IMG/VR virus record: IMGVR_UViG_2718218136_000001
DNA from: a virus
Lineage: Duplodnaviria; Heunggongvirae; Uroviricota; Caudoviricetes
Strand: one strand, 5' to 3'
Length of the DNA: 64,000 bases
Shown: piece by piece, positions 16,960-62,646 of the stretch
How positions within the stretch are numbered: the first letter of the stretch is position 1
Layout of the letters: each line of letters starts with the position of its first letter
Program-made: the position numbers and the translations under genes
The notes under the pieces: generated by a model
The model's input: the letters and a program-made list of their open reading frames with translations, nothing else
Told to the model about the DNA's origin: nothing
Database searches by the model: none

Positions 16960-18153
16960 GTGACCTGGGACGATCACAAGAAGAATTTTGCTCGCCTGGC
17001 GCGAGATGGTGGTTACACCATCGCACAATATGCCGCCGAGTTTAATCTCAACCCAAACACCGCACGTCGTTATCTCCGTGCATTCAAAGAAGACACCAGA
17101 ACAGCGGACAGCCGTAAGCCAAATAAGCCTGTCAGGAAACCACTAAAAAGCATGATCATTGATCACGCTAATGATCAACGTGCAGGTGATCACATTGTGG
17201 CTGAAGTGGCTGAAAAACAAAGAGTTAATGCTGTTGTCAGTGCCGCAGTCGAGAACGCTAAGCGCCAAAATAAGCGCATAAATGATCGTTCTGATGATCA
17301 TGACGTGATCACCCGCGCCCACCGTACCTTACGTGATCGCCTGGAACGCGACACCCTGGATGATGATGGTGAACGCTTTGAATTCGAAGCTGGCGATTAC
17401 CTGATAGATAACGTTGAAGCGCGGAAGGCCGCGCGCGCTATGTTGCGTCGGTCCGGGGCCGATGTTCTGGAAACCACTCTTCTGGAAAAGTCTCTTTCTC
17501 ATCTCCTTATGCTGGAGAACGCCAGGGATACGTGCATTCGCCTGGTGCAGGAAATGCGCGATCAGCAAAAAGACGATGATGAAGGTACTCCGCCTGAATA
17601 CCGTATCGCGAGCATGCTAAACAGCTGTTCCGCGCAGATAAGCAGCCTGATCAACACCATTTACAGCATCCGGAATAACTATCGAAAAGAAAGCCGGGAG
17701 GCGGAAAAGCACGCTTTATCTATGGGGCAAGCTGGCATTGTTAAGCTGGCATACGAACGAAAGCGTGAAAATAACTGGTCAGTGCTGGAAGCGGCTGAAT
17801 TCATCGAGGCGCATGGAGGAAAAGTGCCGCCCCTGATGCTGGAGCAAATCAAAGCCGATCTGCGTGCTCCTAAGACCAATACCGATGATGAGGAAAATCA
17901 AACAGCATCTGGCGCTCCATCACTTGAAGATCTGGATAAAATCGCGCGAGAACGGGCCGCCAGCCGCCGCGCTGATGCCGCATTGTGGATTGAGCATCGT
18001 AGAGAAGAAATTGCCGATATCGTCGATACAGGTGGTTATGGTGATGTCGATGCGGAAGGCATATCAAACGAAGCATGGCTTGAACAGGATCTGGACGAAG
18101 ACGAGGAGGAAGACGAAGAAGTTACCCGCAAACTGTACGGGGATGATGATTAA
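16960..18153 (+). CDS. pacA: Terminase small subunit PacA
   Basis: 397 aa, GTG start, [18 protein letters not shown]...; contains the pac hexamer cluster. Confidence 0.9.
17150..17315 (+). other. pac packaging site: two clusters of TGATCA/G hexamers (Dam GATC sites) inside pacA
   Basis: Four hexamers at 17153-17192 and three to four at 17283-17312, as in P1 pac. Confidence 0.8.
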
Positions 18154-19637
18154 TGGCCAGAAGTTGCGTAACGGACCCACGTTGGCGCGAGCTTGTGGCG
18201 CTATATCGTTATGACTGGATTGCGGCCGCTGATGTGTTGTTTGGGAAGACACCAACCTGGCAGCAGGATGAGATCATTGAGTCCACGCAGCAGGACGGCA
18301 GTTGGACAAGTGTGACCTCCGGCCATGGTACTGGTAAATCGGATATGACGAGTATCATTGCAATACTTTTCATCATGTTTTTCCCCGGCGCTCGCGTCAT
18401 TCTGGTCGCTAACAAAAGACAGCAAGTCCTTGATGGTATTTTCAAATACATAAAGAGCAATTGGGCTACTGCTGTTAGCAGATTCCCGTGGTTGTCGAAG
18501 TATTTCATTCTTACAGAAACGTCTTTTTTTGAGGTGACTGGCAAGGGTGTTTGGACAATATTGATAAAGTCCTGTCGCCCCGGAAATGAGGAGGCGTTGG
18601 CTGGTGAACACGCCGATCATCTCTTGTATATCATCGACGAAGCGTCGGGGGTGAGTGATAAAGCATTCAGTGTGATAACAGGTGCGCTGACCGGTAAGGA
18701 TAACCGTATTCTGCTTCTTTCCCAGCCTACGCGACCTTCAGGCTATTTCTACGATTCACACCACAGACTAGCTATTCGCCCGGGAAATCCTGATGGATTG
18801 TTTACTGCGATAATACTGAATAGTGAAGAATCTCCGCTTGTAGATGCAAAATTTATACGAGCAAAACTTGCGGAGTATGGCGGTCGTGATAACCCCATGT
18901 ACATGATCAAAGTACGTGGTGAATTTCCCAAATCTCAAGATGGCTTTCTTCTTGGTCGTGATGAGGTTGAGCGGGCGACGCGGCGAAAGGTCAAGATTGC
19001 CAAAGGATGGGGCTGGGTTGCATGTGTTGACGTTGCTGGTGGCACAGGACGAGATAAGTCCGTTATTAATATCATGATGGTGTCCGGCCAGCGAAATAAA
19101 CGCCGTGTAATCAACTATCGTATGCTGGAATACACAGACGTTACAGAAACGCAGTTAGCCGCCAAGATTTTCGCAGAATGTAACCCAGAACGGTTCCCGA
19201 ACATAACCATAGCTATTGATGGCGATGGCTTGGGGAAATCGACGGCTGATCTAATGTACGAACGCTATGGCATTACCGTCCAGCGTATCCGCTGGGGTAA
19301 AAAGATGCACAGCCGTGAAGATAAAAGCCTTTATTTCGATATGCGCGCTTTCGCGAATATTCAGGCGGCAGAAGCTGTAAAATCAGGGCGTATGAGGCTT
19401 GATAAGGGGGCTGCGACTATAGAGGAAGCATCAAAGATACCGGTAGGGATAAATTCCGCAGGTCAATGGAAGGTGATGTCAAAGGAAGATATGAAGAAAA
19501 AACTCAACCTGCACTCACCGGACCATTGGGATACATATTGTTTCGCTATGTTGGCGAACTATGTTCCCCAAGATGAAGTGCTTAGCGTCGAAGACGAAGC
19601 GCAGGTTGATGAAGCTCTGGCATGGCTTAACGAGTAA
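18153..19637 (+). CDS. pacB: Terminase large subunit PacB
   Basis: 494 aa; start overlaps pacA stop; ATPase-like GHGTGKS segment. Confidence 0.85.
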
Positions 19638-19640
19638 AAA

Positions 19641-19657
19641 CTTGCTCTAATAAATTG
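19641..19657 (+). promoter_or_regulatory. C1-operator-like site (cttgctctaataaattg) upstream of the icd-ant module
   Basis: 16/17 consensus match, 4 nt after the pacB stop. Confidence 0.55.
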
Positions 19658-19864
19658 TGTTTTTTGACTGCCGATGTTACATTGAACCTGACCTCTTGCG
19701 CCTTGAGGCATTTTCGGTTTATGCTTATCAGGCACCTCATTAAAACGGGTGCCGGGATTGAGACCCCGGATAATGTCAAAGGCGACACAGACGCCGAAAG
19801 CGTCTTTTTTTGTGTCATGCCATCGCACAGCCATACGTAGCGTTTAGCTCCGAAATCAATGGTA

Positions 19865-19955
19865 GTGCTGGCTGGGCTGCCGAAAGGCAGGCCGGTTCCC
19901 TTTGACGCCGGTAGTCTCAACCCAGTCAGTGCTACCGCCATTGAGATTGAGACCT
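19865..19955 (+). ncRNA. Candidate c4-like antisense RNA (immI repressor RNA)
   Basis: Hairpin gtctcaa...ttgagac (19914-19947) whose loop carries gctaccgc, complementary to gcggtagc at 19959-19966 just upstream of the icd RBS; direct repeat tagctcc at 19849 and 19963. Boundaries approximate. Confidence 0.35.
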
Positions 19956-19996
19956 CACGCGGTAGCTCCTTAACTTAGTCAAAGGAGGCTGCCATT

Positions 19997-20218
19997 ATGG
20001 CTACTGTCCCTACCCCAACTCATCCTGAATTCATCTGGCGCTTCTATTCCTGCCAGAAACGTCACTATCACTTCGTTATTGCACCGACAGAAGATGAGGC
20101 CCGTTCTCAGCTTCCTGACGCTCCCTGCATTTTCTCTGCCCGCTTTTCCACTGATTCGCGCAACTCTCTCAGTTACTGGTGCCTCCCTGTTAACGCTTCT
20201 GCTCAGGAGGGACTATGA
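19997..20218 (+). CDS. icd: Icd-like small protein (interference with cell division), translationally coupled to ant
   Basis: 73 aa; ATGA overlap with the ant start; paralog at 58961..59182. Confidence 0.6.
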   Translation: MATVPTPTHPEFIWRFYSCQKRHYHFVIAPTEDEARSQLPDAPCIFSARFSTDSRNSLSYWCLPVNASAQEGL

Positions 20219-21330
20219 GAACGTCATTAGTCACCCGTGAAGAAATGATTGAGGCAATTGAACAGCACACATCCTGTATCAGTACCAGGGATATACCGGG
20301 CGTTATTGCCAACTACTTCATGATCACCAAACAACTTTACCGGAGAAAGGACAAGAACGCTGTTCACCGCATTCTGTTGTCTGATATCCGCGAATACCTG
20401 CTCGAACAGGGGCATCTGAATTACGCAACCGTCGCAGCCGAAACACGCAAGGAGGCACACAGAATGAAAGCAACTAACGTTAAATCAGAAAAAACTCATG
20501 CACCTTCAGTTCAGGAATCGGAGCTGGTGGTTGTTCAGAATCAGTCTGATGAAATTCCCGTTCTGGAATGGCTGGGAGTGCGTGTAGTGACAACTAAGAT
20601 CCTTGCTAAGGGGTATGGGACAGATGCGGATAACATCAAGAAGAACTTTTCCCGTAATGCTGAACGTTTTTGTGAAGGCAAGCATTTCTATAAAGTTATT
20701 GGAGATGATTTGAACAATTTGCGGGTGACTTTAAGTAACTCACAAAATCCTATCTCTCCTAAAGCCCGCTCACTCATCCTCTGGACGGAACGCGGCGCAG
20801 CCCGCCACGCTAAAATGATCGAAACCGATCAGGCATGGGCATTCTTTGAAAAACTGGAAGACAGCTACTTCCGACAAAAAGAACAGCAACCGATCGCAAT
20901 CCCCCAGACGCTTCCAGAAGCTCTGCGCCTTGCTGCCGAACTGGCTGAACAAAAGCAACTTCTGGAACAGAAAGCCCATCAGCTAAATCAGCAGCTGGTG
21001 GCCGCAGCCCCCAAAGTCGATTTTGCCGACCGGGTATCAGTGGCTAAGGGGATCCTGATTGGGAATTTTGCAAAGGTCGTTGGACTTAAACAAAATGCGC
21101 TGTTTGCCTGGTTACGGGAGAACGGCATTCTGATAGCGTCCGGCGGCCGTAAAAATGTACCGTTCCAGCAGTACATAAACGCCGGATATTTCACAGTGAA
21201 AGAAGTGGTGCTGGATGATGAAGAGGGCTACCAGATACGGCTGACGCCCCAATTAACGGGGAAAGGCCAACAGTGGTTGACGCGTAAACTGCTCGATGCT
21301 GGCTTGTTAAAACCGGTGGCGGCTGAATAA
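20215..21330 (+). CDS. ant: Antirepressor Ant (N-terminal domain plus C-terminal antirepressor domain)
   Basis: 371 aa; C-terminal QQYINAGYFTVKEV...GKGQQWL block shared with the kilA-like gene and with the disrupted copy at 59179-60211. Confidence 0.7.
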   Translation: MRTSLVTREEMIEAIEQHTSCISTRDIPGVIANYFMITKQLYRRKDKNAVHRILLSDIREYLLEQGHLNYATVAAETRKEAHRMKATNVKSEKTHAPSVQESELVVVQNQSDEIPVLEWLGVRVVTTKILAKGYGTDADNIKKNFSRNAERFCEGKHFYKVIGDDLNNLRVTLSNSQNPISPKARSLILWTERGAARHAKMIETDQAWAFFEKLEDSYFRQKEQQPIAIPQTLPEALRLAAELAEQKQLLEQKAHQLNQQLVAAAPKVDFADRVSVAKGILIGNFAKVVGLKQNALFAWLRENGILIASGGRKNVPFQQYINAGYFTVKEVVLDDEEGYQIRLTPQLTGKGQQWLTRKLLDAGLLKPVAAE

Positions 21331-21362: not shown

Positions 21363-22214
21363 TTATTGCGCGCTTTCGGGGTTGTCGTTTACTGGCTGCC
21401 CCTTCTTGGTTTTACGGCTGCGCGTAACTGATGCGGCTGACTTAACCTTTTTCTCTTCGCGAGTGATGGCAATTTGTTTTTTTACATTTTCAATATCTGC
21501 CAGGCGATATATTTTTGCTTGCGGCCAGCGGTCGCAGATGATCGGTTCTATGGAGTCATAAAGGCTAAATTTTGCTTTTTCGAATTCACCGTTGATGATG
21601 ATTCCATCACGGAGAGTTTCATCGCAGATAAACACGCCACACAGCGGTACATGGTAACTAACTGATTTACCATCATTGTAGTTAGGGCTACTGGAGATGT
21701 AGTGGACGCGCAGCATTGTTTCGCTAAAGCCGTGTACACGCATACGGAATTTTTCATCCTCCGGGTACTGCCTCATTAGCTCTTTTGTTGCTTCCAGGTT
21801 CTCTATGTATTTCGCACTGTGCTCATTGATCCCCGCGCTTTTTTGGATGCGAATGTCCTTATCAATCAGATGAATAATGCGGCCAGCGGTCATGTTGACG
21901 CTGTTCACAGCTTCTGTCTGATAAGTTGTAACCTTGCGCACACCGCGAAGGATGTTAGGCACTGGATATAAAATAGTCTTTGGGATATTGAGGTCTGGGT
22001 ACTGTTCCAGTTCCCGCGCCATTAAAGTCCATTTATCAATTTCAGCCTGAATGCTGTCCGTTTCTTTGAACGGTAGAACGACAACCGGGCGTACAGGACG
22101 ACCGTCGCTGGCGGTATCAACGTGTTGGGCGCGTGCAACAGCTTTTTTTAGAAAGAGATCCCTGAAGCTGACGAACTCCTGGTACAGTTGTTCGCCGTAG
22201 ACATAATTTATCAT
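21363..22214 (-). CDS. c1: C1 repressor of lysogeny
   Basis: 283 aa beginning MINYVYGEQLYQEFVSFRDL, matching P1 C1 as I recall it. Confidence 0.95.
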   Translation of the reverse strand: MINYVYGEQLYQEFVSFRDLFLKKAVARAQHVDTASDGRPVRPVVVLPFKETDSIQAEIDKWTLMARELEQYPDLNIPKTILYPVPNILRGVRKVTTYQTEAVNSVNMTAGRIIHLIDKDIRIQKSAGINEHSAKYIENLEATKELMRQYPEDEKFRMRVHGFSETMLRVHYISSSPNYNDGKSVSYHVPLCGVFICDETLRDGIIINGEFEKAKFSLYDSIEPIICDRWPQAKIYRLADIENVKKQIAITREEKKVKSAASVTRSRKTKKGQPVNDNPESAQ

Positions 22215-23367: not shown

Positions 23368-24399
23368 ATGTCCAATTTACTGACCGTACACCAAAATTTG
23401 CCTGCATTACCGGTCGATGCAACGAGTGATGATGTTCGCAAGAACCTGATGGACATGTTCAGGGATCGCCAGGCGTTTTCTGAGCATACATGGAAAATGC
23501 TTCTGTCCGTTTGCCGGTCGTGGGCGGCATGGTGCAAGTTGAATAACCGGAAGTGGTTTCCCGCAGAACCTGAAGATGTTCGCGATTATCTTCTATATCT
23601 TCAGGCGCGCGGTCTGGCAGTAAAAACTATCCAGCAACATTTGGGCCAGCTAAACATGCTTCATCGTCGGTCCGGGCTGCCACGACCAAGTGACAGCAAT
23701 GCTGTTTCACTGGTTATGCGGCGGATCCGAAAAGAAAACGTTGATGCCGGTGAACGTGCAAAACAGGCTCTAGCGTTCGAACGCACTGATTTCGACCAGG
23801 TTCGTTCACTCATGGAAAATAGCGATCGCTGCCAGGATATACGTAATCTGGCATTTCTGGGGATTGCTTATAACACCCTGTTACGTATAGCCGAAATTGC
23901 CAGGATCAGGGTTAAAGATATCTCACGTACTGACGGTGGGAGAATGTTAATCCATATTGGCAGAACGAAAACGCTGGTTAGCACCGCAGGTGTAGAGAAG
24001 GCACTTAGCCTGGGGGTAACTAAACTGGTCGAGCGATGGATTTCCGTCTCTGGTGTAGCTGATGATCCGAATAACTACCTGTTTTGCCGGGTCAGAAAAA
24101 ATGGTGTTGCCGCGCCATCTGCCACCAGCCAGCTATCAACTCGCGCCCTGGAAGGGATTTTTGAAGCAACTCATCGATTGATTTACGGCGCTAAGGATGA
24201 CTCTGGTCAGAGATACCTGGCCTGGTCTGGACACAGTGCCCGTGTCGGAGCCGCGCGAGATATGGCCCGCGCTGGAGTTTCAATACCGGAGATCATGCAA
24301 GCTGGTGGCTGGACCAATGTAAATATTGTCATGAACTATATCCGTAACCTGGATAGTGAAACAGGGGCAATGGTGCGCCTGCTGGAAGATGGCGATTAG
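23368..24399 (+). CDS. cre: Cre tyrosine recombinase
   Basis: 343 aa, MSNLLTVHQNLPALPVDATSD...; essentially the Cre sequence. Confidence 0.98.
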   Translation: MSNLLTVHQNLPALPVDATSDDVRKNLMDMFRDRQAFSEHTWKMLLSVCRSWAAWCKLNNRKWFPAEPEDVRDYLLYLQARGLAVKTIQQHLGQLNMLHRRSGLPRPSDSNAVSLVMRRIRKENVDAGERAKQALAFERTDFDQVRSLMENSDRCQDIRNLAFLGIAYNTLLRIAEIARIRVKDISRTDGGRMLIHIGRTKTLVSTAGVEKALSLGVTKLVERWISVSGVADDPNNYLFCRVRKNGVAAPSATSQLSTRALEGIFEATHRLIYGAKDDSGQRYLAWSGHSARVGAARDMARAGVSIPEIMQAGGWTNVNIVMNYIRNLDSETGAMVRLLEDGD

Positions 24400-58630: not shown

Positions 58631-58647
58631 CCTGCTCTAATAAATTT
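58631..58647 (+). promoter_or_regulatory. C1-operator-like site upstream of the second c4-icd-ant region
   Basis: cctgctctaataaattt. Confidence 0.5.
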
Positions 58648-58839
58648 GTATTTTTAAGTCGCGAATGCTATCTTTTCGCATCATATTGACCTTTTAATCG
58701 TTCAGGCTTATAGTTTCGCCGTCGTAGCAAATTCTGCGACCAGGTTTGACAGCCTGAATGATTGTGCGGACAACCGCAGATTTCCGATATTGCGGTATTT
58801 TGTGTCCGTTAAACCGCGTTACGCCCAAATTATGGTGGG

Positions 58840-58955
58840 GCGTGATGGGGAGGCTTCGGCCTGCTGGTTTCACAATCGCCAGTCTGTCAACCCTGTCACG
58901 TCCTGCCACCTGTTTGACAGCGGGTAGCAGGTTGTTAAACCTGATTGTGAGGCCG
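58840..58955 (+). ncRNA. Candidate second c4-like RNA region
   Basis: Hairpin tctgtcaa...ttgacag positionally analogous to the one at 19914-19947; boundaries approximate. Confidence 0.25.
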
Positions 58956-62057: not shown

Positions 62058-62500
62058 TCACTGGCGTTTTCAGTTTGAGTCGGAGATGCAATTGATTTTT
62101 TACAGTTAGCGATCGCTTTGCAGGATATGTTTGTATTGGCTTCTGTGTATACATGATAGCCGAAAAATGCTTGTCGATATCGACCGCAAAGAACAAGCAG
62201 GAGATTCTAGTATGGATTTTCTTTGGCGCGGTCTGGCCATTAGGATCATGTTTGCTGCAACATTTCTTCTGATGTGGATATTCACCCTTCCAGGTGATTC
62301 TATAGAAAAAAAGCCAGACATTGATACAATCGTTGCGGTGCTTGAGGCTATCTGCTTCAGGCATTACCCGAAAAGCAGATAGAAGAAGCCCCAGTAACAT
62401 TACGCGTCCTGCAAGACGCTTAACATTAATCTGAGCATATCTATGCTTAGCATACGTAGATTAGCCTCTTACCGACCAAAAGGTCAAGGAGAAGCAGGCT

Positions 62501-62646
62501 ATGAAGCAGCAAAAAGCGATGTAATCGCTCTGATCGTCATCTGTTTAACCGTCATTGTGACGGCACTGGTAACGAGAAAGACCTCTGCGAGTACGAATCC
62601 GAACGGCCAACGGAGTCACTGTCTTCACAGCCTACCGAATCTGAAA
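62501..62646 (+). pseudogene. Degenerate hok/gef-family membrane toxin gene (at least three frameshifts)
   Basis: MKQQKAM (frame 2), VIALIVICLTVIVTALVTRK (frame 1), DLCE (frame 0) and VRIRTANGVTVFTAY (frame 2) together resemble HokC/Gef MKQHKAMIVALIVICITAVVAALVTRKDLCEVHIRTGQTEVAVFTAYESE. Confidence 0.5.

What the first reader, a model, noticed from the sequence alone, without database searches (positions are those of the whole stretch)
19845..19990. Candidate c4-like antisense RNA with loop sequence complementary to the icd ribosome-binding region
A hairpin (gtctcaa / ttgagac) presents gctaccgc in its loop, the exact complement of gcggtagc at 19959-19966, about 20 nt upstream of the icd Shine-Dalgarno; tagctcc also occurs as a direct repeat upstream (19849) and downstream (19963). 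This mirrors the a1/b1 - a'/b' - a2/b2 arrangement described for P1 c4.
Basis: partly seen in the sequence, partly recalled or inferred. Interest (0 to 1): 0.4.

Follow-up and report, generated by a model that had tools for sequence, protein, structure and literature searches.

The report
Second C4 antisense RNA immunity module

Summary
The window is a P1-like phage-plasmid, 99.5% identical to phage RCS47 over this region. Positions 19855-19942 match Rfam C4 antisense RNA (RF01695) at 75.4 bits against a cut-off of 45. An IsrK-type RNA carrying a1/b1 lies upstream (19732-19810), and icd (19997-20218) and ant (20215-21330) lie downstream.

- **Recognition elements:** a' is GUCUCAA (19914-19920, in the junction) and b' is CCUUUGAC (19899-19906, in the loop of hairpin 2).
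- **Targets:** a2 is UUGAGAC (19947-19953). b2 is GUCAAAGG (19978-19985), overlapping the Shine-Dalgarno sequence. a1 and b1 are at 19758 and 19775.

Across 109 distinct related loci, a'/a2 and b'/b2 co-vary: 22 a' and 38 b' variants, with 95% exact complements against 0.3-3% between classes.

The GCUACCGC/GCGGUAGC complementarity is nevertheless real. It co-varies in IsrK-type modules, including P4: 6 of 9 pairs show compensatory changes, and 0 of 500 shuffles reach the observed value. It cannot form together with the C4 outer stem, which suggests a conformational switch in the unprocessed transcript.

The TAGCTCC repeat is not conserved. Overall this is an unannotated member of a known kind.

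The parts
19641..19657 (+). C1-repressor operator-like 17-mer CTTGCTCTAATAAATTG, equivalent to P1 Oc4/Op51
   Evidence: It matches the consensus ATTGCTCTAATAAATTT that I supplied from memory at 15 of 17 positions. The operator annotated in P1 is AATGCTCTAATAAATTT. Module 2 has an equivalent site at 58631. C1 binding is inferred.
19655..19725 (+). Two weak sigma-70-like promoter candidates: TTGTGT-17-TACATT (19655-19683, overlapping the operator) and TTGCGC-18-TATGCT (19696-19725, ending 7 nt before the start of the IsrK model)
   Evidence: Found by a relaxed scan, each with 5 mismatches. The stricter consensus scan found none. The arrangement mirrors P1 P2c4/P1c4. Inference only.
19732..19810 (+). 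IsrK-type small RNA / leader: two hairpins plus an intrinsic terminator, carrying a1 and b1
   Evidence: Rfam RF01394 at 60.2 bits against a gathering score of 50, covering the full model. Terminator stem at 19789-19805 followed by a T-run.
19758..19764 (+). a1 (TTGAGAC), upstream complement of a', in the loop of IsrK hairpin 2
   Evidence: It co-varies with a' across classes.
19775..19782 (+). b1 (GTCAAAGG), upstream complement of b'
   Evidence: It co-varies with b'.
19855..19942 (+). C4 antisense RNA gene (Rfam hit). By analogy with the annotated P1 C4, the mature RNA is predicted at 19861-19939 (79 nt), leaving an unpaired G-C-C 3' tail; the next base is A, so the precursor reads GCCA, like the 3' end of a tRNA
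   Evidence: RF01695 at 75.4 bits against 45. My own covariance model gives 89.9 bits. MFE is -46.5 kcal/mol, z = -5.3. The P1 mature C4 coordinates come from L092:495-571 and the offset mapping.
19860..19876 (+). 5' strand of the C4 outer stem (P1 stem)
   Evidence: Model columns 6-22. 100% of cells paired, with 8 of the 17 outer-stem pairs compensatory.
19877..19890 (+). Hairpin 1 (CUGCC-GAAA-GGCAG, GNRA tetraloop)
19891..19912 (+). Hairpin 2, whose 12-nt loop carries b' (CCTTTGAC, 19899-19906)
19914..19920 (+). a' (GTCTCAA), in the single-stranded junction between hairpin 2 and the outer stem.
19921..19937 (+). 3' strand of the C4 outer stem.
19947..19953 (+). a2 (TTGAGAC), target of a' on the icd leader.
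   Evidence: Its position is equivalent to the annotated P1 a2.
19959..19966 (+). c2 (GCGGTAGC), complementary to the 3' end of C4 (c'). A conserved, co-varying element between a2 and b2
19978..19988 (+). b2 (GTCAAAGG, 19978-19985), overlapping the icd Shine-Dalgarno sequence AAGGAGG (19982-19988)
   Evidence: Equivalent to the annotated P1 b2.
19997..20218 (+). icd homologue (73 aa), the first gene controlled
   Evidence: ORF. 80% identity to P1 Icd over 66 aa. Not annotated in the RCS47 record.
20215..21330 (+). Antirepressor gene (ORF6N + ANT/KilAC domains). Its start overlaps the icd stop (ATGA), so the two are probably translationally coupled

Best explanation
Positions 19855-19942 encode a C4-family antisense RNA. 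It belongs to a second, IsrK-type copy of the P1 immI immunity module, inserted between pacB and c1 of a P1-like phage-plasmid.

Proposed mechanism:
1. Transcription starts upstream of 19732, probably under a C1 operator at 19641-19657. It first makes an IsrK-like RNA carrying a1 and b1. Most transcripts should stop at the terminator (19789-19812).
2. Read-through transcripts contain C4, the a2/c2/b2 leader, icd and ant.
3. C4 folds into a 16-17-bp outer stem that encloses two hairpins. By analogy with P1, it is cut out by RNase P at its 5' end (before G19861) and trimmed at its 3' end to about 79 nt.
4. The junction sequence a' (GUCUCAA) and the loop sequence b' (CCUUUGAC) pair with a2 (19947-19953) and b2 (19978-19985) on the leader. 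b2 overlaps the icd Shine-Dalgarno sequence, so icd translation is blocked. The overlapping, translationally coupled ant gene then stays silent. In P1 this also causes Rho-dependent termination.
5. The short IsrK-like RNA, or a1/b1 acting in cis, can compete for a'/b' and relieve repression.

The a'/b' sequences of this module differ from those of the canonical module at 58828-58913, so the two C4 RNAs should not cross-react.

I infer that in the unprocessed read-through transcript it stabilises an alternative fold. In that fold a1:a' and b1:b' pair in cis, C4 is not a substrate for RNase P, and a2 sits in a hairpin loop.

What is shown: family membership, the fold, all the complementarities and their co-variation. 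What is inferred: expression, processing, repression, and the role of c':c2.
For: - **Family and fold.** Rfam RF01695 scores 75.4 bits against a gathering score of 45, and RF01394 (isrK) 60.2 against 50. The MFE of 19855-19942 reproduces the C4 fold, with z = -5.3. The fold is 100% paired with 13 compensatory pairs in a MAFFT alignment of 12 sequences, and 99.7% paired with 17 of 27 compensatory pairs in 25 distinct sequences.
- **Recognition pairs.** Exact a'/a2/a1 and b'/b2/b1 complements are present, with b2 overlapping AAGGAGG. The three sites change together among close relatives: GAGAC / GGAAC / GGCCU for a, and GUCAAAGG / GCAAAAGG / GUCUAAGG for b. The same holds among P1/P7-type modules. 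Over 109 distinct loci there are 22 a' and 38 b' variants. Exact complements of at least 7 nt occur in 95% of native pairs, against 0.3% (a) and 2.9% (b) between classes.
- **Layout.** It matches the annotated P1 immI: Oc4, a1, b1, c4, a2, b2, icd, ant1.
- **Downstream genes.** Icd is 80% identical to P1 Icd. Ant has ORF6N + ANT domains. The icd stop and ant start overlap as ATGA.
- **Separate specificities.** For b, native duplexes are -12.7 and -11.7 kcal/mol against -6.0 and -5.5 for the crossed pairs. For a the difference is weaker in one direction (see evidence against).
- **The c':c2 helix.** 88.5% of cells are paired. 6 of 9 pairs have changes on both sides. There are 29 double-change cells against 10.1 +/- 2.2 in shuffles (0 of 500). 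Slid controls are 33-60% paired. Native duplex energy averages -14.3 kcal/mol, against -11.4 between classes and -8.3 shuffled. c2 follows the 3' strand by Watson-Crick pairing where the 5' strand only wobbles.
- **Alternative fold.** With the IsrK part attached, the MFE of this locus and of 7 other IsrK-type loci (8 of the 18 folded) switches to a1:a' + b1:b' + c':c2 with no outer stem.
- **Experimental support in a homologue.** Cis a1:a' pairing was shown by compensatory mutations in Gifsy-1 IsrK, and an RNA of about 80 nt is processed from the read-through transcript (PMC4825925). I mapped those mutations onto a1 and a'.
Against: - There is no expression or processing data for this locus.
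- The strict promoter scan finds nothing, and the candidates I list each have 5 mismatches.
- An intrinsic terminator lies between the promoter region and C4, so C4 depends on read-through.
- Pfam has no model that hits Icd, so the icd call rests on 80% identity to P1 Icd.
- The a-site cross-reactivity check is not clean. Module 1 a' against the module 2 leader gives -7.8 kcal/mol, against -8.8 for its own leader, although the crossed site is not at the a2 position.
- For c':c2: the helix is degenerate in P1/P7-type modules, including module 2 here (36-58 of 200 shuffles do as well), yet P1 C4 is known to work. MFE predictions are split between conformers. Relatedness of the sequences inflates the shuffle statistics. 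I could not read the primary P1 and P4 papers to see whether this helix was already described.
Confidence: 0.85

Rival explanations
1. A hairpin with stem GUCUCAA/UUGAGAC presents GCUACCGC in its loop, and that loop is the antisense element. It pairs with GCGGUAGC on the icd leader, while the TAGCUCC repeats play the role of a1/a2.
For: The strings and complementarities exist. The GCUACCGC/GCGGUAGC complementarity is conserved. In cis the two helices could formally form an H-type pseudoknot.
Against: The covariance models place GCUACCGC in the 3' strand of the outer stem, which is paired in 100% of cells with many compensatory changes. GUCUCAA and UUGAGAC behave as a' and a2, each with an upstream twin a1. 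The element that covers the Shine-Dalgarno sequence is b2, pairing with the loop of hairpin 2. The upstream TAGCTCC is absent from the L002 class and from the Stx-phage, P4 and APSE homologues. Folding C4 plus its downstream sequence gives the C4 fold, not this hairpin.
Confidence: 0.04
2. c2 is a third trans-acting target site. After a':a2 and b':b2 contact is made, the single-stranded 3' tail of mature C4 nucleates pairing with c2 and displaces the end of the outer stem. The result is a more stable three-helix (pseudoknot-like) repressor-mRNA complex.
For: c2 pairs with the very 3' end of the mature RNA, including the unpaired tail nucleotides. Column 18 is paired in 27 of 27 sequences and column 19 in 15 of 27. 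The mature end is taken from the P1 annotation. c2 keeps a fixed spacing of about 5 nt after a2. c2:c' uses Watson-Crick pairs where the 5' strand has G.U wobbles, so displacement would be energetically favourable.
Against: The order of the elements (a2-c2-b2 on the mRNA against b'-a'-c' on C4) is not collinear. The arrangement needs part of a 17-bp stem to melt. P1/P7 C4 works with a degenerate c2. The tools available cannot model it.
Confidence: 0.2
3. The c':c2 complementarity has no function. c2 is a leftover partial copy of the C4 5' strand, or reflects shared ancestry of closely related cassettes.
For: c2 is identical to the 5' strand at 75% of the compared positions. Many of the loci are closely related, and shuffle controls ignore relatedness (tool caveat). 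The helix is weak in the P1/P7 type.
Against: At the column where the 3' strand alternates A/G, c2 alternates U/C (16 A-U, 10 G-C) while the 5' strand stays U. Where the 5' strand forms G.U, c2 is Watson-Crick in 31 of 50 cells. The helix is kept in divergent lineages with different sequences: P4 GGCGAUAGC, Klebsiella phage GGUGGUGA, the second D6 copy UGGCGGC. Slid-partner controls, which preserve relatedness, drop to 33-60% paired.
Confidence: 0.15
4. The module is an inactive relic of recombination: the C4 gene and targets are intact in sequence but are not expressed or used in this phage.
For: It is an extra copy outside the canonical immI position. Promoter matches are weak. The RCS47 record annotates only ant here.
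Against: All six a/b sites are perfect complements. Both ORFs are intact and coupled. The same insertion recurs in many P1-like contigs, and the a and b sites change together there, which implies ongoing selection. A C1-operator-like site is retained.
Confidence: 0.1

Closest known systems
C4 antisense RNA of phages P1 and P7 (immI: c4-icd-ant1/2; Rfam RF01695)
   Same: Same covariance-model family and the same fold: an outer stem, a tetraloop hairpin, and a hairpin whose loop is b', with a' in the junction. The order Oc4-like operator, a1, b1, c4, a2, b2, icd, ant is the same, and b2 lies over the icd ribosome-binding site. Icd is 80% identical.
   Different: - It sits between pacB and c1, not next to sim/kilA; the canonical copy is at 58.8 kb in this window.
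- The upstream a1/b1 carrier is IsrK-type with an intrinsic terminator, rather than the c4-a1b1 motif.
- The a'/b' specificity is different.
- It is 79 nt rather than 77 nt.
- The c':c2 helix is perfect here and degenerate in P1/P7.
- The antirepressor has an ORF6N + KilAC architecture.
IsrK - STnc1160 - orf45 - anrP locus of Salmonella prophage Gifsy-1, and its relatives in Stx phages, phiP27 and APSE
   Same: The architecture is IsrK-like RNA with terminator, then a C4-like RNA, then an antirepressor-type gene, with read-through transcription. Cis a1:a' pairing was demonstrated by compensatory mutants, and an RNA of about 80 nt is processed from the read-through transcript (PMC4825925). About 69% DNA identity over IsrK, C4, the leader and the first codons.
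   Different: - In Gifsy-1 the regulated reading frame was defined as orf45, which starts at the AUGG of the C4 5' strand. The RNA studied ended at nt 180, before c2.
- Here the first ORF is an icd homologue whose Shine-Dalgarno sequence overlaps b2.
- The host element is a P1-like plasmid prophage controlled by C1.
CI RNA of satellite phage P4 (seqA / seqB / seqC immunity)
   Same: It hits the same covariance model at 73.7 bits. It has a2-, b2- and c2-equivalents at the same offsets: GUGAGAA at +5, GGCGAUAGC at +16, UUCACAGGA at +36. It is listed with C4 as a non-tRNA, hairpin-like RNase P substrate (PMC5499578).
   Different: The upstream target lies about 144 nt away, and no exact a1 was found within 150 nt. 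CI controls premature termination of P4 replication genes rather than an icd-ant operon (as described in PMC4825925).

Membership tests
C4 antisense RNA (Rfam RF01695) | Covariance-model score at or above the curated gathering score over the full model | tested here: met
   75.4 bits against 45, model positions 1-87 of 87, E = 6.6e-13.
C4 antisense RNA (Rfam RF01695) | Long outer stem enclosing a tetraloop hairpin and a second hairpin, supported by co-variation | tested here: met
   The MFE reproduces it, with z = -5.3. 100% paired with 13 compensatory pairs, and 99.7% paired with 17 of 27 compensatory pairs. The first hairpin ends in a GAAA tetraloop.
C4 antisense RNA (Rfam RF01695) | Single-stranded a' and b' complementary to a2/b2 downstream on the same strand, with b2 over the ribosome-binding site of the first ORF | tested here: met
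   a' 19914-19920 with a2 19947-19953. b' 19899-19906 with b2 19978-19985, overlapping AAGGAGG at 19982-19988. Co-variation over 109 loci.
C4 antisense RNA (Rfam RF01695) | Upstream duplicate targets a1/b1 | tested here: met
   TTGAGAC at 19758 and GTCAAAGG at 19775. The three sites change together.
C4 antisense RNA (Rfam RF01695) | Excised from a longer transcript by RNase P to a stable RNA of about 77 nt | not testable with these tools
   Only consistent features can be shown. There is an acceptor-like stem, the predicted cleavage is before G19861, and the unpaired sequence after the stem reads G-C-C-A, like a tRNA 3' end.
C4 antisense RNA (Rfam RF01695) | Represses translation of icd/ant in trans | not testable with these tools
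   Inferred from the complementarity and from the P1 record annotation.
IsrK / a1b1 carrier RNA (Rfam RF01394; compare RF03163 c4-a1b1) | Covariance-model score above the gathering score; two hairpins plus a Rho-independent terminator | tested here: met
   60.2 bits against 50 over the full model. Terminator at 19789-19805 plus a T-run.
IsrK / a1b1 carrier RNA (Rfam RF01394; compare RF03163 c4-a1b1) | Carries sequences complementary to the downstream C4-like RNA, with the a1 site in the loop of hairpin 2 | tested here: met
   The Gifsy-1 mutations G28/G31 and C159/C162 map to a1 and a' in a Salmonella homologue.
IsrK / a1b1 carrier RNA (Rfam RF01394; compare RF03163 c4-a1b1) | Hfq binding and trans-activation of downstream translation | not testable with these tools
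   Known only for Gifsy-1 (PMC4825925).
P1 immI locus proper | C1-controlled operator upstream of c4 | tested here: inconclusive
   A 15-of-17 match to the operator consensus lies at 19641-19657. The consensus was supplied from memory, and binding was not tested.
P1 immI locus proper | Genomic position between sim and kilA/repL, with the c4-a1b1 type leader | tested here: not met
   This module lies between pacB and c1 and has an IsrK-type leader. The canonical immI is the second module, at 58.6-59.2 kb.

The most novel reading that the evidence does not exclude
It is mutually exclusive with the C4 acceptor-like stem. The read-through transcript would then act as a conformational switch: it either matures into the C4 repressor or stays as a leader in which C4 is unfolded. 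The helix is absent from the C4 features annotated in the P1 and APSE-7 records (a1, b1, a2, b2; a', b'). The Rfam C4 match covers c' but ends before c2.
Probability: 0.4. Interest if true: 0.5.

Novelty: new member of a known kind. Interest (0 to 1): 0.32.

Why it matters
This phage-plasmid carries two complete C4-icd-ant immunity modules with different recognition sequences. One is P1-type and one is IsrK/lambdoid-type, and both appear to sit behind C1-operator-like sites. The published RCS47 record annotates neither the RNA nor icd in this module, so anyone modelling immunity, superinfection exclusion or induction of P1-like plasmids that carry resistance genes would miss a regulator.

The family comparison also shows how freely a'/b' specificities are exchanged: 22 a' and 38 b' variants were found. 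In addition it reveals a third conserved helix, c':c2. If that helix is functional, it would add a cis-acting structural switch to a textbook antisense system and would link the P1 C4, P4 CI and Gifsy-1 IsrK models.

Tried and rejected
- **Primary papers.** I could not read Hartmann 1995 (PMC41593) or Lobocka 2004 (PMC523184); neither is held. The Citron & Schuster model is therefore cited only through Weinberg 2010 Additional file 1, a 2025 review and the P1 GenBank features.
- **Promoters.** The strict promoter scan of 19560-20060 found none.
- **Icd family.** Pfam gives no hit for either Icd.
- **c2 as a passive copy of the 5' strand.** Rejected, because c2 tracks the 3' strand by Watson-Crick pairing where the 5' strand wobbles.
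[quoted passage not shown] Not supported here: the loop is 20 nt, there is no T-run after 19966, and the terminator scan found only the IsrK terminator. Some relatives do have a U-run after c2.
- **TAGCTCC repeat as functional.** Rejected, since it is not conserved.
- **Co-folding C4 with the leader.** Loop-loop and pseudoknotted contacts cannot be represented by nested-structure folding, so I did not attempt it.
- **Broader C4 sampling by DNA pattern.** Patterns general enough to catch distant C4 genes would give thousands of chance hits, so I ran only one subfamily pattern.
Full report
**What is in the sequence**

- GTCTCAA is at 19914-19920, and TTGAGAC is at 19947-19953 and again at 19758-19764.
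- GCTACCGC is at 19931-19938, and its exact complement GCGGTAGC is at 19959-19966.
- The Shine-Dalgarno sequence AAGGAGG is at 19982-19988, and the ATG of a 73-codon ORF is at 19997.

**Genomic setting**

Window 19642-20220 is 99.5% identical to the P1-like phage RCS47. The locus lies between pacB (18153-19637) and the C1 repressor gene (21363-22214, minus strand), with cre at 23368. The RCS47 record annotates only 'ant' here, with no RNA and no icd. The insertion of an antirepressor gene between pacB and c1 in RCS47-like plasmids has been noted in the literature, without mention of the RNA (PMC6906374). The ORF at 19997-20218 is 80% identical to P1 Icd. The next ORF (20215-21330) overlaps it by ATGA and has ORF6N + ANT/KilAC domains.

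**Identity of the RNA**

A scan of the whole window against Rfam at gathering thresholds gave these hits:

| Family | Position | Bits (cut-off) |
|---|---|---|
| C4 antisense RNA, RF01695 | 19855-19942 | 75.4 (45) |
| C4 antisense RNA, RF01695 | 58828-58913 | 68.4 (45) |
| IsrK, RF01394 | 19732-19810 | 60.2 (50) |
| c4-a1b1, RF03163 | 58708-58760 | 55.2 (46.7) |

The 88-nt segment folds on its own into the family structure. There is a 16-bp outer stem in the MFE (17 bp in the family model), a hairpin with a GAAA loop, and a second hairpin with a 12-nt loop. The energy is -46.5 kcal/mol, z = -5.3.

I aligned 12 homologues with MAFFT and imposed this structure. 100% of cells were paired and 13 pairs had changes on both sides. 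On 25 distinct sequences aligned to my own covariance model, 99.7% were paired and 17 of 27 pairs were compensatory.

The GenBank annotation of P1 gives the reference layout: operator Oc4, two promoters, a1, b1, the 77-nt C4 RNA, a2, b2, icd and ant1. By offset from the model hit, the mature RNA here would be 19861-19939 (79 nt). That leaves an unpaired G-C-C 3' tail. The next base is A, so the precursor reads GCCA, like the 3' end of a tRNA. C4 and P4 CI are listed among non-tRNA, hairpin-like RNase P substrates (PMC5499578).

**The real recognition elements**

In the family model the single-stranded parts are the loop of hairpin 2 and the junction before the 3' strand.
- The loop contains CCUUUGAC (19899-19906), which is b'. 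Its exact complement GUCAAAGG occurs at 19978-19985, overlapping the Shine-Dalgarno sequence (b2), and at 19775-19782 (b1).
- The junction is GUCUCAA (19914-19920), which is a'. Its complement UUGAGAC occurs at 19947-19953 (a2) and at 19758-19764 (a1, in the loop of IsrK hairpin 2).

**Co-variation of a and b**

I collected three sets of relatives:
- 80 IMG/VR loci, found through Icd;
- P1, P7, D6, P4, APSE-1/-7, phiP27, several Stx phages, a Klebsiella phage and a Salmonella phage;
- 80 loci found with a DNA pattern.

Among close relatives of this module the three a sites change together (GAGAC / GGAAC / GGCCU), and so do the three b sites (GUCAAAGG / GCAAAAGG / GUCUAAGG). The same holds in P1/P7-type modules.

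Over 109 distinct loci there are 22 a' and 38 b' variants. An exact complement of at least 7 nt sits at the expected downstream place in 95% of loci. When loci of different classes are crossed, the figure is 0.3% for a and 2.9% for b. This is strong comparative evidence for the C4 mechanism as summarised by Weinberg 2010 and a 2025 review.

Modules 1 and 2 of this window have different a'/b'. Crossed b duplexes are -6.0 and -5.5 kcal/mol, against -12.7 and -11.7 for the native pairs. The a comparison is weaker in one direction: module 1 a' against the module 2 leader gives -7.8 against -8.8 for its own leader, though the crossed site is not at the a2 position.

**The IsrK part**

Module 1 has the IsrK-type leader, with an intrinsic terminator at 19789-19805 followed by a T-run. 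This is the type found in Gifsy-1, Stx phages and APSE.

In Gifsy-1, transcripts that read through the IsrK terminator are translationally silent, and short IsrK activates them in trans. A cis helix between IsrK G28/G31 and C162/C159 was proven by compensatory mutants. An RNA of about 80 nt (STnc1160) is processed from the read-through transcript (PMC4825925). In a Salmonella homologue these positions fall in a1 and a'.

By analogy, 19732-19812 should yield a decoy RNA for C4.

A C1-operator-like 17-mer (15 of 17 matches to the consensus I supplied from memory) lies at 19641-19657, and two weak promoter candidates follow it. The strict scan found none.

GCUACCGC is the last 7 nt of the outer-stem 3' strand plus one tail nucleotide; I call it c'. 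GCGGUAGC lies between a2 and b2; I call it c2. They are complementary in nearly all IsrK-type modules, and the sequences differ between classes:

| c' (stem end, bar, tail) | c2 |
|---|---|
| UUCACCA\|CC | GGUGGUGA(A) |
| UCCACCG\|CC | (G)GCGGUGG |
| UCCGCCA\|CC | GGUGGCGG or GGUGGUGG |
| GCUAUCG\|CC (P4) | GGCGAUAGC |
| CUCACCA\|CC | GGUGGUGAG |
| GCUGCCA\|CC | GGUGGUAGC |

Statistical tests:
- **Duplex energies.** Native pairs average -14.3 kcal/mol, against -11.4 between classes and -8.3 for shuffled targets. For this module's class only 1 of 200 shuffles does as well.
- **Pair counts.** In a gapless 27-sequence alignment the 9-bp helix is 88.5% paired, and 6 pairs change on both sides. There are 29 double-change cells against 10.1 +/- 2.2 in shuffles (0 of 500), and slid controls are 33-60% paired.
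- **Not a copy of the 5' strand.** Where the 3' strand alternates A/G, c2 alternates U/C while the 5' strand stays U. Where the 5' strand wobbles, c2 is Watson-Crick in 31 of 50 cells.
- **Weak in P1/P7.** The helix is not significant in P1/P7-type modules, including module 2 here (36-58 of 200 shuffles do as well).

The helix cannot coexist with the C4 outer stem. Folding C4 plus 62 nt downstream keeps the outer stem in 19 of 20 loci. Adding the 125 nt upstream flips this locus and 7 other IsrK-type loci (8 of 18) to a different fold: a1:a' + b1:b' + c':c2, with no outer stem.

I therefore favour a cis conformational switch in the unprocessed transcript. A third trans contact, or no function at all, remain possible. 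Weinberg 2010 remarked that the 3' half of the outer stem sometimes overlaps a terminator hairpin and might be cis-regulatory. Here there is no T-run after c2.

**The TAGCTCC repeat**

Its frequency in the window is what chance would give. The upstream copy is deleted in the L002 class, which keeps every other element. I treat it as coincidental.

**Verdict**

The finding is a genuine but previously catalogued kind of element: a C4-family antisense RNA, in a second IsrK-type immI-like module of a P1-like phage-plasmid, unannotated in the closest public record. The one detail that looked arbitrary, the 8-nt complementarity, turns out to be a conserved co-varying helix that deserves experimental follow-up. 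Expression, RNase P processing, repression and the role of c':c2 are all inferred, not shown.

Noticed in passing
window 58828-58913, with targets at 58746, 58914 and 58943: The canonical immI C4 of this phage combines the a' of P1 (CUGUCAA) with the b' of P7 (CACAAUC), and its a1/a2 and b1/b2 sites match. It is a hybrid immunity specificity, different from both reference phages.
   Followed up: partly
window 62336-62506: A sok antitoxin RNA (Rfam RF01794, 81.3 bits), so a hok/sok-type plasmid addiction module is present.
   Followed up: no
L112:9709-11209 (minus strand); also L105, L106, L096, L143, L158, L139: Tandem arrays of two or three complete IsrK-C4-ORF modules. In L112 there are three, 656 nt apart, each with its own a' and b' sequences.
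   Followed up: partly
window 19982-20033: The Shine-Dalgarno region and the first codons of icd (MATVPT...) are shared with non-icd ORFs downstream of IsrK-C4, for example the MATVPT... ORFs in the L112 array. The DNA match to Stx phages runs about 36 nt into the ORF. The regulatory cassette seems to be exchanged together with the start of the reading frame.
   Followed up: partly
L058:1171-1530: An IMG/VR variant in which sequence resembling the pacB terminase gene runs straight into the b2/Shine-Dalgarno sequence of icd. IsrK, C4, a2 and c2 are all deleted, which would leave icd-ant without its antisense control.
   Followed up: no
L091:174-253 (phage D6): A second, divergent C4-like hit (40.7 bits) lies about 470 nt upstream of the D6 IsrK-C4 module. 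It has its own a2-, c2- and b2-like complements downstream.
   Followed up: no
window 19732-19810 compared with 58708-58760: Rfam keeps isrK (RF01394) outside clan CL00128, although it plays the same a1/b1-carrier role as c4-a1b1 (RF03163). The Gifsy-1 mutations G28/G31 and C159/C162 map onto a1 and a' (L214).
   Followed up: yes
window, 16 sites, for example 8001, 19641, 22773, 22856, 58631, 60289: 16 C1-operator-like 17-mers (3 or fewer mismatches to ATTGCTCTAATAAATTT) are scattered through the window, as expected for a P1-type genome. One precedes each of the two C4 modules.
   Followed up: partly
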